From IMG/VR virus record IMGVR_UViG_3300014846_000086: a stretch of DNA of 2,498 bases; one strand, written 5' to 3'. Made by a program: the position numbers and the translations under genes. Positions 1 through 2,498 of this stretch are shown here, piece after piece. This DNA is from a virus. Taxonomy: Duplodnaviria > Heunggongvirae > Uroviricota > Caudoviricetes. The stretch's first letter is position 1, and the number at the start of each line of letters is the position of its first letter. The notes under the pieces were generated by a model. That model had not been told where the DNA came from and ran no database searches. It saw only the letters and a list, made by a program, of their open reading frames with translations.

Positions 1-324
1 GTGGCGCAGTCTGCAAATGGCGTCTTTGTGTCTCTTCCTGACGTCGAGGATGTGGACAACGCCGATATTAACCAGCGCCTGCTGGAAGTCATTGAACAGA
101 TTGGCAGTTATTCCAGACAGATTCGTTCGGCAATCGAAGACGGTGTGGTGGAACCGCATGAGAAGACAGCAATTAACGACGAGCTGTATCTCTCAATTTC
201 GAAGCTGCAGGAGCATGCAGCACTGGTCTACAAAATCTTTTGCATTTCAGAAAGTAATGACGCCCGCGAGTGTGCAGCTCCGGGCGCCGTGGCGTGTCGT
301 GACTGTGGAGAAACTAACGCATGA
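1..324 (+). CDS. hypothetical acidic protein, 5'-partial (CDS almost certainly begins upstream of the window)
   Basis: Frame 1 is open from base 1 to TGA at 322-324. The translation is protein-like (acidic, helical-looking) and has no internal Met, so the only in-window start would be GTG at 1. The stop overlaps the next ATG (ATGA at 321-324). The alternative frame 17-415 has W/C/R-rich composition typical of out-of-frame sequence. No family recognised. Confidence 0.55.
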
Positions 325-659
325 ACAGTTTAACAACACACTACCGTCGCTCGCAACTGATTGCGCTTCCTGTACCGGGTGGAAAAGCGAAGGTGGAGTA
401 TTGCTATGCAGTTAATGTACCAGGTGACAGGGAAATTGTAACCCACAGCTTTGCTGAGTGGGCTGTGGGTGATTTCAACCGGCAGAAGGAGACAGTCCTT
501 TGCGACAAGTTAACCGCTGGTTCAAAGATCACTACGGAGTGCCCGTCAGAGTCATTCGTTGGGAGCCGGAAACACAACGAGTTATCTACCTCCGCGAAGG
601 CTATGAGCATGAGTGCTTCAGCCCGCTCGAACAGTTTCGTCGTAAATTCAGGGAAATAG
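321..659 (+). CDS. hypothetical protein; first ~60 codons credible, 3' portion probably out of frame (see frame-change finding)
   Basis: ATG 321 overlaps the upstream stop (ATGA), with GGAG at 307-310 ten nt upstream. The N-terminal translation [59 protein letters not shown] looks protein-like. After about 500 the frame-0 translation becomes Ser-rich and low-complexity, while frame +2 becomes strongly protein-like. Confidence 0.4.
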
Positions 660-679
660 AGGTCGGTCATGAGCACTAA
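500..679 (+). CDS. frame +2 ORF: either the frameshifted 3' part of the 321 gene or an independent small gene with a TTG start
   Basis: Frame 2 is open from 473 to TAA at 677-679 and translates to ...[59 protein letters not shown]. It contains no ATG. TTG at 500-502 is preceded by AAGGAGA (486-492) with a 7-nt spacer. It is absent from the ORF track, presumably because it lacks an ATG start. Confidence 0.4.
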
Positions 680-932
680 ATTAACCGGCTATGTATGGGA
701 TGGTTGCGCTGCATCAGGCATGAAATTATCCAGCGTGGCAATTATGGCCCGCCTGGCTGATTTCAGTAATGACGAAGGTGTGTGCTGGCCATCAATTGAA
801 ACCATTGCCCGCCAGATTGGCGCGGGGATGAGTACCGTCAGAACGGCTATCGCACGGCTGGAAGCAGAAGGCTGGTTAACGCGTAAGGCGCGTCGCCAGG
901 GTAACGAACCAACCCGACAGGAGAAGTCATGA
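669..932 (+). CDS. small winged-helix / helix-turn-helix DNA-binding protein (HTH_36 / PF13730-like), 87 aa
   Basis: ATG 669 has GAGG at 659-662 six nt upstream. The segment SSVAIMARLADFSNDEGVCWPSIETIARQIGAGMSTVRTAIARLEAEGWLTRKARRQG has the look of the wHTH domain found in small DNA-binding proteins of P4-like islands and in replication-initiator N-termini (recalled, not searched). The stop overlaps the next start (ATGA at 929-932). Confidence 0.75.
   Translation: MSTKLTGYVWDGCAASGMKLSSVAIMARLADFSNDEGVCWPSIETIARQIGAGMSTVRTAIARLEAEGWLTRKARRQGNEPTRQEKS
919..924 (+). promoter_or_regulatory. Shine-Dalgarno (AGGAGA) for the sid-like gene
   Basis: AGGAGA lies 5 nt upstream of ATG 929, inside the 3' end of the HTH gene. 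Confidence 0.5.
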
Positions 933-1672
933 ACAACACCGCAGTGAATAACAACCTTTCCACTTTTCCGGCTGTAACGCAGCGGGCACTGGAAACCATG
1001 AACACAGCCAGAAACGCATGGCTTGAAGCACGTCGTCAGCAGAAAGCGGCAGCGGATAATATTGCGACAATCCGCCAGCGTCGCGCTGAAATGGAATCCA
1101 CGACGAATACACTGAATGAGGAGTGGCGCACGCTGTTTCGTGAAAGTCAGGGCGTGGTCTCAAAGGAAATGAAAAAACTGCGCACGGAAATTGCGCTGGG
1201 ACGAGAAACGCTTGAGGATTTTGATGAGCTGCTGGCGGCTCAGGAAAGCGAAAATGCACTTTTGCCGCAGAAAGCTGCGGAATTAGCCGGAAAGTATATC
1301 CACGCGCATAACATTCTTGTGGATATTCGCGCAAAACAAATCTGGGAGGATTTTATGCAGTCGCATGGAAAAGCGCTTATTCAGACGCTGAGCCTGCTTA
1401 AATCCACAATGGGCCGGGAAGCCAGTGCCGTTGTGGGTGTGGTGAATTCAGTTAATGACCCGGACACAGTGCTGAAAGACTTTATTCATAAACATATCAC
1501 CAGACCGGCTCTGGCTAACGATGCGATGCCTGAACAGGACCCGGTGTTTAAACTGGCGGGAGTTGCCCCGGATTATGCGGCGCGTCTGGATTTCAGTAAT
1601 CAACTCTCTCCAGCAGCTATGCATAAAATAAAGGTTCGTCAGGAACTTGCTGAGAAGGAGAAAGCAGTATGA
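929..1672 (+). CDS. sid: Sid-like capsid size-determination (external scaffold) protein, Sid/Psu family
   Basis: At 247 aa it is close to P4 Sid (about 244 aa as recalled). It is clearly paralogous to the adjacent Psu homolog: N-terminal NARNAWLEARRQQKA vs NARILWARHSESRKA, central FMQSHGKAL vs FMQANGAAL, C-terminal LSPAAMHKIKVRQEL vs YTPAQHLRFQQRL. It has a long charged, helical central insertion. AGGAGA at 919-924 lies 5 nt before ATG 929, and the gene sits immediately 5' of psu. Confidence 0.65.
   Translation: MNNTAVNNNLSTFPAVTQRALETMNTARNAWLEARRQQKAAADNIATIRQRRAEMESTTNTLNEEWRTLFRESQGVVSKEMKKLRTEIALGRETLEDFDELLAAQESENALLPQKAAELAGKYIHAHNILVDIRAKQIWEDFMQSHGKALIQTLSLLKSTMGREASAVVGVVNSVNDPDTVLKDFIHKHITRPALANDAMPEQDPVFKLAGVAPDYAARLDFSNQLSPAAMHKIKVRQELAEKEKAV
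1655..1660 (+). promoter_or_regulatory. Shine-Dalgarno (AAGGAG) for the psu homolog
   Basis: AAGGAG lies 8 nt upstream of ATG 1669, inside the 3' end of the sid-like gene. Confidence 0.5.
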
Positions 1673-2220
1673 CGGCCCGAGGCACACCTGACCAGGTACT
1701 TACCAGTTTTCGGAATGCCCGTATTCTGTGGGCCAGACATAGTGAGAGCCGAAAAGCCGTTGAACAACAGATAACATCTCTCCTCGCTGCCACAGAAAAA
1801 CCAGCAGATTATGCCCGACAGCTCGAATTCCTGCGGGAACGTCTGGATGTGCTGAAATGGCAAATTAACTGTGCTGCGCGCGAATGCATTTACTCGCAGC
1901 ATTTACTGATGGAGGCCTGCACAGAAGCCGCTCTCAGCAATTTTATGCAGGCGAATGGGGCAGCCCTGACATCTGCACTGGCTCCGTTCCTGAAGGGGCG
2001 CGGAGGGGTTGACGTTGCGTCCCGTATATTACGCAGTGCTCTGGTTCGCCAGCTGGCAATAACACCGCCTGAAATTGCCGGGGATTATCGTGAGATCCTG
2101 GATGAATCCGGTTTGATGCCTGACCCCAGTATGATTCGTGATTGCCAGGGCTCTTACACCCCGGCACAACATCTGCGTTTTCAGCAACGCCTGAATGACA
2201 TTAACGATATACAGGAGTGA
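1669..2220 (+). CDS. psu: phage polarity suppression protein Psu homolog (capsid decoration / Rho antagonist in P4)
   Basis: The 183-aa product (P4 Psu is about 190 aa) carries motifs I recall from P4 Psu: LKWQINCAARECIYSQH (P4: KWQVNQAAGRYIRSH), FMQANGAALTSALAPFLKG (P4: FMQQHGTALAAALAPELMG) and C-terminal YTPAQ (P4: FTPAQ). AAGGAG at 1655-1660 lies 8 nt before ATG 1669, with an ATGA overlap with the upstream gene. Confidence 0.85.
   Translation: MTARGTPDQVLTSFRNARILWARHSESRKAVEQQITSLLAATEKPADYARQLEFLRERLDVLKWQINCAARECIYSQHLLMEACTEAALSNFMQANGAALTSALAPFLKGRGGVDVASRILRSALVRQLAITPPEIAGDYREILDESGLMPDPSMIRDCQGSYTPAQHLRFQQRLNDINDIQE
2212..2217 (+). promoter_or_regulatory. Shine-Dalgarno (CAGGAG) for the Ogr/Delta-like gene
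   Basis: CAGGAG lies 8 nt upstream of ATG 2226 and overlaps the last codons of psu. Confidence 0.5.
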
Positions 2221-2225
2221 TATTA

Positions 2226-2498
2226 ATGGCACTTAAATGTCCGGAATGCGGTACAGTTGCACACGCCAGAACAGCAGCCTATGAAGCTCCGTCAGTTAAA
2301 CGCTCGTGGTATCAGTGCCAGAATCTGGAATGTTCCTGCACATTTACGGCACTGGAGAGTGTGGATAAGATAATCATGAAACCCCGGCGCAATGAACAGG
2401 AACCAGACAAATCACAAACCCCGGTAAAACAACAGCAAACGCTCAATCGCTATGGCTCCGCGTCAAAACTGTCAAGCCGTCAGCAGATTCCTGTCTGA
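2226..2498 (+). CDS. Ogr/Delta-family zinc-finger late transcriptional activator (single-domain, 90 aa)
   Basis: MALKCPECGTVAHARTAAYEAPSVKRSWYQCQNLECSCTF...ESV matches the Ogr/Delta C-x2-C-x22-C-x4-C signature (compare P2 Ogr MFHCPLCQHAAHARTSRY...HQCQNVNCSATF..ESV, recalled). CAGGAG at 2212-2217 lies 8 nt before ATG 2226. The track's GTG 2217 start adds MIL and overlaps the psu stop; I prefer 2226. Stop TGA is at 2496-2498, the last bases of the window. Confidence 0.85.
   Translation: MALKCPECGTVAHARTAAYEAPSVKRSWYQCQNLECSCTFTALESVDKIIMKPRRNEQEPDKSQTPVKQQQTLNRYGSASKLSSRQQIPV

What the first reader, a model, noticed from the sequence alone, without database searches (positions are those of the whole stretch)
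929..2498. P4-type capsid-hijacking module in non-canonical order: sid-like, psu-like, then Ogr/Delta-like
The three genes are the hallmark late module of P4-family satellites (Sid redirects helper capsid size, Psu decorates the capsid and antagonises Rho, Delta activates late promoters). In P4 itself the operon order is sid-delta-psu, as I recall; here the zinc-finger activator follows psu. This suggests a distinct lineage or a rearrangement of the late operon.
Basis: partly seen in the sequence, partly recalled or inferred. Interest (0 to 1): 0.5.

Follow-up and report, generated by a model that had tools for sequence, protein, structure and literature searches.

The report
Promoter-less P4-like module fused to prophage remnant
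The three genes really are the capsid-hijacking genes of a P4-type phage satellite, but their sid-psu-delta order is a common, already published variant, and here they sit in a decayed fusion with a lambda-like prophage remnant.

Summary
ORFs 929-1672, 1669-2220 and 2226-2498 are distant homologues of P4 Sid (24% identity), Psu (29%) and Delta (45% to its N-terminal half). P4's own order is sid-delta-psu.

The order is not remarkable. De Sousa & Rocha (PMC8628076) report the psu/delta swap as the most frequent variant, at 20% of P4-like satellites. This exact module, in this order, occurs in 618 of 5426 complete E. coli genomes.

- Bases 1-905 are the early-right operon of an SfII/SfIV-like lambdoid prophage: YmfL, DUF4222 and a replication O gene cut to 87 aa.
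- Bases 901-2498 are the satellite.
- The two parts are joined at a 5-bp microhomology, GTAAC.

The deletion removed the satellite's int, alpA, primase, ori and its whole Delta-dependent Psid promoter. It stops about at the predicted transcription start.

The junction is real. The chimeric 87-aa O' protein turns up in at least 24 independently assembled contigs with the same neighbours. All eight carrier loci examined share a 1-nt attR deletion, which points to one clonal lineage.

The module is probably now read from the prophage's pR; that step is inferred. Overall this is ordinary mobile-element decay, of low novelty.

The parts
1..324 (+). C-terminal part of YmfL, the CII-like regulator of the lambdoid prophage early-right operon. 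The gene starts upstream of the window.
   Evidence: Pfam Phage_CP76 4e-8, NCBIfam YmfL 1.4e-22, PHROG 7487/101. 98-99.7% DNA identity to phages SfII, SfIV and vB_EcoM-689R6.
321..659 (+). YmfM-like ORF (112 aa) of the lambdoid prophage. Its last 160 nt overlap the DUF4222 ORF in another frame.
   Evidence: PHROG 1170 at 3.8e-70, full length. Called as a gene in the metagenome loci but not annotated by PGAP in SW070917.
500..679 (+). DUF4222 small protein (59 aa) of the lambdoid prophage.
   Evidence: Pfam DUF4222 8.6e-19, PHROG 1343 2e-34. Annotated.
669..932 (+). Truncated, chimeric replication-initiator O' (87 aa). It keeps the N-terminal HTH of a lambdoid O/primosomal protein. Its last 9 codons and its stop are read from satellite DNA. 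The stop TGA 930-932 overlaps the sid ATG.
   Evidence: Pfam HTH_36 4e-12. PHROG 11896/391 match only positions 1-80 of profiles 225-298 long. The intact O in phage vB_EcoM-689R6 is 313 aa (942 nt including stop). PGAP flags the gene as 'missing C-terminus'.
901..905 (.). Deletion junction: 5-bp microhomology GTAAC shared by the lambdoid O gene and the satellite's sid leader.
   Evidence: Three-way comparison of window, phage L004 and intact satellite L002. Phage identity runs through base 905 and satellite identity starts at base 901.
906..928 (+). Residual sid leader with its ribosome-binding site (AGGAG 919-923). This is all that remains of the satellite's alpha-sid intergenic region.
   Evidence: Identical to L002 12006-12028. 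The two TGT-N12-ACA Delta-binding dyads of the intact element lie at L002 11939 and 11977, which corresponds to window positions before 901, so they are deleted. No such dyad lies upstream of sid in the window.
929..1672 (+). sid homologue (247 aa), the capsid size-determination external scaffold.
   Evidence: PHROG 6165 7e-93, the same family as P4 Sid. PDB 7jw1 Sid 6e-10. 24% identity to P4 Sid, E 7e-13.
1669..2220 (+). psu homologue (183 aa), a capsid decoration protein and Rho inhibitor. Its start overlaps the sid stop (ATGA).
   Evidence: Pfam Psu 3e-44. PDB 3rx6/4dvd 4e-14. 29% identity to P4 Psu. The Rho-contact motif P-A-Q plus a basic residue is conserved.
2226..2498 (+). Single-domain Ogr/Delta-type zinc-finger late activator (90 aa).
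   Evidence: Pfam Ogr_Delta 6.6e-16. PHROG 603, the same family as P4 Delta. 45% identity to P4 Delta residues 2-45. CX2C-X22-CX4C motif visible in the sequence.

Best explanation
Window 929-2498 is the late, helper-hijacking operon of a P4-like satellite. It encodes Sid (an external scaffold that forces the helper's capsid protein into a small shell), Psu (capsid decoration and Rho inhibitor) and a single-domain Delta (activator of P2-type late promoters). The sub-lineage it belongs to normally has the order sid-psu-delta and normally sits at tRNA-Thr (thrW).

In this genome the satellite is no longer intact. A deletion between 5-bp GTAAC microhomologies joined the O gene of an SfII/SfIV-like lambdoid prophage, also lying at the thrW locus, to the sid leader. 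The deletion removed the rest of the lambdoid prophage and the satellite's int, alpA, icd, primase, ori iterons and whole Delta-dependent Psid promoter.

What remains is an immobile remnant of about 10.5 kb: lambdoid int/xis, the cI/cro immunity switch, ymfL, O', then sid-psu-delta, a cos-like site, the ShosTA (DprA-PRTase) defence pair and attR.

Shown: the gene identities, the junction, the loss of the promoter, and the recurrence of the junction in independent assemblies of what looks like one clonal lineage.

Inferred: the ancestral state was a tandem array of prophage and satellite. Also inferred: sid-psu-delta, if expressed at all, is now read through from the lambdoid pR operon, and so would be under the LexA-like CI repressor rather than under Delta/Ogr.
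For: Gene identities.

Common order:
- PMC8628076 reports the swap at 20%.
- 618 of 5426 complete E. coli genomes carry this module.
- Shigella flexneri locus L012 has the same order.

Chimeric structure:
- Bases 1-905 are 98-99.7% identical to SfII, SfIV and 689R6 phages, and the match stops at 905.
- Bases 901-2498 are 99-100% identical to satellites at thrW.
- The intact satellite reads int-alpA-icd-DUF5375-primase-sid-psu-delta-DprA-PRTase, bounded by 18-bp tRNA-Thr repeats.
- The carrier locus has lambdoid int to O' and then sid onwards.
- The exact breakpoint has GTAAC microhomology.

Promoter loss:
- The intact relative has two TGT-N12-ACA dyads 38 bp apart, the second starting 52 nt before the sid ATG. 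P4 Psid has exactly the same geometry.
- Both dyads lie upstream of the breakpoint, and none is left in the window.

The junction is real and inherited:
- The junction-specific 87-aa O' protein is indexed in 178 blocks of the collection. At least 24 contigs from independent ENA gut-metagenome assemblies carry it with the same neighbours.
- The 50-bp junction sequence is identical in all carriers. Two alleles exist at base 1193.
- All carriers share the right flank and a 1-nt deletion in the attR core that intact elements lack.

Read-through is plausible:
- A pR-like promoter lies at L001 19480-19508.
- No terminator-like site lies on the + strand from cro to the end of delta.
- The O' stop overlaps the sid start (ATGA).
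Against: - No expression data exist. Transcription from pR is inference only, and lambdoid early operons often contain terminators that the simple scan would miss.
- The Psid transcription start was placed by analogy with P4's -55/-18 Delta sites, which I recalled from the literature and did not measure here.
- The tandem prophage-plus-satellite precursor was not observed. The two other satellite-bearing genomes I inspected have the satellite alone.
- Only 1 of 5426 complete genomes carries the junction.
- Weak sigma-70-like matches inside sid (1033-1060) and before delta (2195-2224) occur at chance frequency. They cannot be excluded as internal promoters.
Confidence: 0.85

Rival explanations
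1. An intact, mobile P4-like satellite whose late operon was rearranged (delta moved behind psu).
For: The three genes are intact, tightly coupled and full length relative to intact relatives. The order differs from P4.
Against: The order is the native one of a lineage found in 618 E. coli genomes, and it is a published 20% variant. In this locus no satellite int, alpA, primase, ori or Psid promoter exists between tRNA-Thr and the chromosome flank. Only 4 of the 7 P4 core components remain, counting the lambdoid integrase. The neighbouring excisionase-like gene hits HTH_17, not AlpA.
Confidence: 0.03
2. An assembly chimera: the lambdoid and satellite halves were joined wrongly by the assembler.
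For: Only one of 5426 complete genomes has the whole window. That record is a WGS-derived chromosome.
Against: The junction-dependent 87-aa protein occurs in at least 24 contigs from independent metagenome assemblies made with different assemblers, always with the same gene neighbourhood. Carriers differ by a SNP at 1193 and share a private attR deletion. The overlap is only 5 bp, too short for k-mer or overlap assemblers to join on.
Confidence: 0.02
3. A functional hybrid element, or a domesticated module. Either the ~10.5-kb chimera, which is P4-sized and keeps a cos-like site, is still packaged by a P2-like helper. Or the host keeps an SOS/CI-controlled Sid-Psu-Delta cassette because it interferes with P2-like phages or modulates Rho.
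For: The remnant from attL to attR is about 10.5 kb (L001 ~14808-25340), close to P4's 11.6 kb. A cos-like sequence and the ShosTA defence pair are retained. All three ORFs are intact, and the Psu Rho-contact motif is conserved. The lineage is seen in many gut samples. P2/P4 terminase packages monomeric circles (my own knowledge).
Against: No replication module remains. attL is lambdoid while attR is the satellite's, lacks the lambdoid arm and carries a 1-nt core deletion in every carrier, so excision is unlikely. The element is always at the same site with identical flanks, which fits vertical descent. The ORFs are nearly identical to intact satellites, so there has been too little time for their intactness to indicate selection.
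Confidence: 0.1

Closest known systems
Satellite phage P4 late operon Psid-sid-delta-psu (NC_001609)
   Same: The same three protein families: PHROG 6165, 6366 and 603, and Pfam Psu and Ogr_Delta. The genes show the same tight coupling. In the intact relative the promoter geometry matches P4 Psid: two TGT-N12-ACA dyads 38 bp apart, the second starting 52 nt before the sid ATG. The ori iterons lie upstream of the operon, and a cos-like site and a defence hotspot lie downstream.
   Different: The order is sid-psu-delta rather than sid-delta-psu. Identity to P4's proteins is only 24-45%. Delta is a 90-aa single domain rather than P4's 166-aa tandem. In this window the Psid promoter and everything upstream of it are deleted and replaced by lambdoid prophage genes.
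P4-like satellites with swapped psu/delta, and divergent 'Type C' elements, of de Sousa & Rocha 2021 (PMC8628076)
   Same: The swap is described there as the most frequent organisational variant, at 20%. Divergent elements lacking detectable epsilon and alpha (Pox_D5) are described as early-branching. The intact relative here has a Toprim/DUF927 primase and no epsilon hit, which fits that description.
   Different: I could not map this element onto their clusters; the supplementary lists were not consulted. The locus in this window keeps only 4 of 7 core components, below their detection threshold, so it would be missed or treated as a degraded element.
Shigella/E. coli serotype-converting lambdoid phages SfII, SfIV, and e14-type ymfL-ymfM region
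   Same: Window 1-905 is 98-99.7% identical to their ymfL-DUF4222-O region. The carrier locus has their int, cI (S24 peptidase) and cro layout next to tRNA-Thr.
   Different: O is cut after codon 79. All replication, lysis and structural genes are missing and are replaced by the satellite's late module.
Defective (cryptic) prophage remnants in E. coli, such as CP4-6 at thrW and e14
   Same: It is an immobile mosaic left by a deletion between tandem or adjacent mobile elements at a tRNA hotspot, and it retains regulatory and defence genes.
   Different: Here the breakpoint places a satellite's helper-hijacking genes in the early operon of a different kind of element. I found no described counterpart, but I did not search the literature for one.

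Membership tests
Sid (P4 capsid size-determination protein) | Full-length sequence homology to P4 Sid rather than to Psu | tested here: met
   PHROG 6165 at 7e-93 over 11-246, and P4 Sid falls in the same PHROG. The best PDB hit is 7jw1 Sid, 6e-10 over residues 12-230, whereas Psu hits cover only the C-terminal half at 7e-5.
Sid (P4 capsid size-determination protein) | Forms an external scaffold that redirects P2-type gpN into T=4 shells | not testable with these tools
   This needs helper infection and electron microscopy, or genetics.
Psu (PF07455) | Pfam score above the gathering threshold over the full domain | tested here: met
   151 bits against a cut-off of 27.4, covering profile positions 3-180 of 182.
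Psu (PF07455) | Conserved Rho-contacting helix alpha7 residues (P171, A172, Q173 and K/R180 in P4 numbering, from PMC11718236) | tested here: met
   Window Psu has T164-P165-A166-Q167 aligned to P4 TPAQ, and R174 aligned to K180.
Ogr/Delta late activators (PF04606) | Pfam score above the gathering threshold, and the CX2C-X22-CX4C zinc motif | tested here: met
   58.4 bits against a cut-off of 26.3. C5, C8, C31 and C36 are read directly from the translation.
P4-like satellite (de Sousa & Rocha / SatelliteFinder definition) | Co-localisation of at least 5 of 7 core components (int, psu, delta, sid, alpA, epsilon, alpha) | tested here: not met
   The carrier locus has sid, psu and delta plus a lambdoid integrase. 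It has no alpA (the neighbouring gene hits HTH_17), no epsilon and no alpha. The intact relative L002 has int, alpA, sid, psu and delta plus a DUF927 primase.
P4-like satellite (de Sousa & Rocha / SatelliteFinder definition) | Delta/Ogr-dependent late promoter (TGT-N12-ACA dyads) upstream of sid | tested here: not met
   Present in the intact relative at L002 11939 and 11977. Deleted in the window: the breakpoint is at 901-905 and no dyad lies upstream of sid.
P4-like satellite (de Sousa & Rocha / SatelliteFinder definition) | P2-type cos site next to the late operon | tested here: inconclusive
   No exact or 5-mismatch match to the P4 19-nt cos was found. A cos-like stretch (AAGCGGGCAGGCGTGCGGGGC) and GCATGA repeats lie about 200 bp past delta, outside the window.
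Lambdoid replication initiator O | Full-length protein with the C-terminal P-interaction/ori domain | tested here: not met
   Only 87 aa remain. PHROG 11896/391 match positions 1-80 of profiles 225-298 long. The intact homologue is 313 aa (942 nt including stop).

The most novel reading that the evidence does not exclude
The microhomology deletion created, by accident, a new operon in which a lambdoid CI/Cro (SOS-inducible) switch drives a satellite's Sid-Psu-Delta genes. A successful gut E. coli clone would then keep this ~10.5-kb P4-sized remnant, which bears a cos-like site and ShosTA, for one of two reasons. It might act as an inducible anti-P2 or Rho-modulating cassette, or it might still be mobilisable by a P2-like helper.
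Probability: 0.08. Interest if true: 0.5.

Novelty: already known. Interest (0 to 1): 0.15.

Why it matters
It matters little for the claim as made. The sid-psu-delta order is a documented, frequent variant of P4-like satellites, so it does not point to a new rearrangement or a new kind of element.

The modest added value is practical:
- Gene-order 'anomalies' judged against the single type genome P4 are unreliable, because a large share of E. coli elements have the other order.
- This window is a clean, base-resolved example of how tandem mobile elements at a tRNA hotspot collapse by microhomology deletion into an immobile mosaic. The mosaic keeps defence cargo (ShosTA) and helper-manipulating genes but loses its own regulation.
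- Satellite finders would miss or mis-score such remnants, and prophage finders may call the locus a lambdoid prophage.

If the fused operon is expressed on SOS induction, it would be a natural experiment in rewiring satellite genes. That remains untested.

Tried and rejected
- NCBIfam gave no Sid or Psu model hit. This is uninformative, since Pfam, PHROGs and PDB settle the identities.
- The genome-contig scan with a Psu alignment returned only 8 loci, too few for a gene-order census. Six had sid-delta-psu and one had sid-psu-delta. I therefore relied on the published census and on two megablast counts in E. coli.
- tblastn of the window's Psu against the phage collection found only P4 itself. 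No deposited satellite record of this lineage exists there.
- I looked for the presumed tandem precursor (SfII-like prophage followed by an intact satellite) in LR-64-2 and GPT24-02. Both carry the satellite alone, so the precursor remains inferred.
- An exact and 5-mismatch search for the P4 cos 19-mer failed. Only a gapped resemblance was found.
- Rfam found nothing in the window.
- The assembly-artefact reading was rejected.
- The horizontal-spread reading was rejected because flanks are identical and every carrier shares a private attR deletion.
- PADLOC gave no defence-system hit for Sid, Psu or Delta.
- I did not run structure prediction. Sequence-level evidence was already decisive for family assignment.
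Full report
**Observation.** The window holds three co-directional, tightly coupled ORFs at 929-1672, 1669-2220 and 2226-2498.
- The first is a Sid homologue. It matches PHROG 6165 at 7e-93, and P4 Sid falls in the same PHROG. Its best solved structure is P4 Sid 7jw1, E 6e-10 over residues 12-230, while Psu matches only its C-terminal half. It is 24% identical to P4 Sid, E 7e-13.
- The second is Psu. It scores 151 bits on Pfam PF07455 and 4e-14 against PDB 3rx6/4dvd. It is 29% identical to P4 Psu. The Rho-contacting P-A-Q motif and the basic residue highlighted in PMC11718236 are conserved.
- The third is a single-domain Ogr/Delta zinc finger. It scores 58 bits on Pfam PF04606 and is 45% identical to the N-terminal half of P4's two-domain Delta. 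The CX2C-X22-CX4C motif is visible in the translation.
- The P4 record confirms the order sid-delta-psu.

**Is the order remarkable? No.**
- De Sousa & Rocha (PMC8628076) found that 77% of complete P4-like elements have P4's organisation. [quoted passage not shown]
- Megablast of window 906-2498 finds the module, in this order, at 80% coverage or more in 618 of 5426 complete E. coli genomes, including O157:H7 and O55:H7. The P4-type module is in 867 genomes.
- A small cross-species sample gave 6 loci with sid-delta-psu and 1 (Shigella flexneri, the same lineage) with sid-psu-delta.

**What is really there: a deletion junction.**
- Against phage genomes, only bases 1-905 match. They are 98-99.7% identical to SfII, SfIV, vB_EcoM-689R6 and relatives, across ymfL, a small DUF4222 gene and the start of the replication gene O.
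- Against E. coli genomes, hundreds of strains match bases 901-2498, but only one matches the whole window.
- In strains LR-64-2 and GPT24-02 the satellite is intact at tRNA-Thr (thrW). Its order is int, hypothetical, alpA, icd-like, DUF5375, Toprim/DUF927 primase, sid, psu, delta, DprA, PRTase. It is bounded by an 18-bp repeat of the tRNA 3' end.
- In the one matching complete genome (SW070917) the same site reads tRNA-Thr, lambdoid int, excisionase-like HTH, yfdT/yfdR, S24-peptidase CI, Cro, YmfL, DUF4222 and truncated O. It then runs directly into sid, psu, delta, DprA, PRTase and the same chromosomal flank.
- Base-by-base comparison puts the breakpoint at a 5-bp microhomology, GTAAC (901-905).
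- The truncated O' (87 aa; the intact protein is 313 aa) reads 9 codons into satellite DNA. It stops at a TGA that overlaps the sid ATG.

**The native promoter is gone.**
- In the intact relative, the 400-bp primase-sid spacer carries GGTGGAACAG-type iterons and two TGT-N12-ACA dyads 38 bp apart. The second dyad starts 52 nt before the sid ATG.
- That is exactly the geometry of P4 Psid: dyads at 9493 and 9531, ATG at 9583.
- From my own knowledge of P4, these are the Delta/Ogr sites centred near -55 and -18. That places the transcription start at about window base 902-903, which is at the breakpoint.
- Both dyads are deleted, and no dyad remains upstream of sid. Only 23 nt of leader with the AGGAG ribosome-binding site survive.
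- Consensus scans show a pR-like promoter between cI and cro (L001 19480-19508). They show no terminator-like site on the + strand from cro to the end of delta.
- The most economical model, which is inferred and not shown, is that sid-psu-delta is now the distal part of the lambdoid early-right operon. It would then be controlled by the LexA-like CI repressor instead of by Delta/Ogr.

**The junction is real and inherited.**
- The 87-aa O' can exist only with this junction. Its exact sequence is indexed in 178 blocks of the assembly collection. The 24 contigs read came from independent ENA gut-metagenome assemblies, and the 7 places shown (the others were collapsed as similar) have the same neighbourhood.
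- The 50-bp junction sequence is identical in all of them.
- The window is not base-identical to SW070917. It differs at base 1193 (Sid A89 in the window, T89 in SW070917). The window is identical to contig L007, and at that site to the intact satellite. The junction therefore predates that SNP.
- All eight carrier loci examined (SW070917 and seven metagenome contigs) share the right chromosomal flank of LR-64-2. They also share a private 1-nt deletion in the attR core (TCCTATTATCG-CACCAT) that intact elements lack.
- This points to one clonal E. coli lineage carrying an immobile remnant. It argues against both an assembly artefact and a spreading hybrid element.
- The lambdoid left arm differs among carriers in patches and in gene content. 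This could be ongoing decay, gene conversion with other prophages, or consensus effects of metagenome assembly.

**Likely history (inferred).** SfII-type phages integrate at thrW (my own knowledge), and the 98-99.7% match fits that family. Such a prophage and the satellite would have sat in tandem at thrW. A single illegitimate deletion from O to the sid leader then removed the prophage's replication, lysis and structural genes, together with the satellite's int-to-promoter segment. I did not find the tandem precursor.

**Context downstream of the window.**
- After delta there is a hairpin followed by a T-run, then GCATGA repeats and a cos-like stretch.
- Next comes a ShosA/ShosT pair (PADLOC 2.5e-90 and 3.1e-94). 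This is the same gene pair (DprA + PRTase) as the system that Rousset et al. showed protects against T7 and lambda (PMC9122126).
- The remnant therefore keeps the satellite's defence cargo.

**Comparison and novelty.**
- The module belongs to the Sid, Psu and Ogr/Delta families; all sequence criteria are met.
- The locus fails the operational definition of a P4-like satellite. It has 4 of 7 core components, has lost its late promoter, and has a mismatched and damaged att pair.
- The intact relatives are a divergent P4-like sub-lineage. They have a DUF927 rather than a Pox_D5 primase, no detectable epsilon, an early operon co-directional with the late one, and a single-domain Delta. This fits the divergent 'Type C' early-branching elements discussed in PMC8628076, although I did not map it onto their clusters.
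- Neither the gene order nor the decay process is new.

**Verdict.** Interest is low (0.15).

The least ordinary reading not excluded is that the accidental pR-sid-psu-delta fusion is expressed on SOS induction and retained for anti-P2 or Rho-modulating effects, or that the P4-sized remnant with a cos-like site is still mobilisable. I put that at about 8%.

Noticed in passing
window 321-679: Two ORFs with strong phage-family matches overlap by 160 nt in different frames. One is YmfM-like, 321-659 (PHROG 1170, 3.8e-70, full length). The other is DUF4222, 500-679 (Pfam 8.6e-19). A 63-aa PHROG (20047) matches only YmfM residues 1-63, which end about where the DUF4222 ORF begins. PGAP annotates only DUF4222, whereas the metagenome gene caller calls the 112-aa ORF. 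One of the two 'families' may be partly a read-through artefact.
   Followed up: no
L001 22499-22913 (just past the window's end): The delta-DprA spacer has three features. First, a hairpin with a T-run (CCCGGTCGAGTACCGGGATTTTT) that the terminator scan missed. Second, several GCATGA/GTGCATG repeats resembling those before the P4 cos. Third, a cos-like stretch, AAGCGGGCAGGCGTGCGGGGC, compared with P4's AAGCGGGCG|GGCGAGGCGGGG.
   Followed up: partly
L001 22914-25134: The cargo retained in the remnant is a ShosA/ShosT (DprA-like plus phosphoribosyltransferase) defence pair (PADLOC). It occupies the cos-adjacent hotspot position described by Rousset et al. 2022.
   Followed up: yes
L001 25313-25340, compared with L002 16415-16432: All junction carriers have a 1-nt deletion (G) in the 18-bp attR core. 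Intact satellites do not. This is a private marker of the carrier lineage.
   Followed up: yes
window 1193: The window differs from E. coli SW070917 by one base, G in the window and A in SW070917 (Sid A89T). It is identical to metagenome contig L007 (ENA ERZ27239698). SW070917 is therefore not the exact source. Most carriers have the derived allele.
   Followed up: yes
L005, L006, L008, L009 left arms, compared with L001 14800-20000: The lambdoid left arm varies among junction carriers. SNPs cluster in patches (yfdR region 16658-17360; ymfL 5' end 19844-19922). L008 and L009 have different gene content (extra DUF2303/YfdP, or Ead/Ea22 genes). This could be gene conversion with other prophages, further deletions, or mixing during metagenome assembly.
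   Followed up: partly
L002 4969-13598 (intact relative): The intact satellite's layout differs from P4 beyond the psu/delta swap. The int and the alpA-to-primase operon are co-directional with, and upstream of, ori-Psid-sid-psu-delta. The primase has Zn-ribbon, Toprim_3 and DUF927 domains instead of D5_N/Pox_D5. No epsilon (Derepression family) homologue was detected.
   Followed up: partly
L002 11650-11860: The primase-sid spacer of the intact satellite contains at least seven copies of a GGTGGAACAG/CTGTTCCACC-type iteron in both orientations. They resemble the P4 ori type-1 repeats and are all deleted in the window.
   Followed up: no
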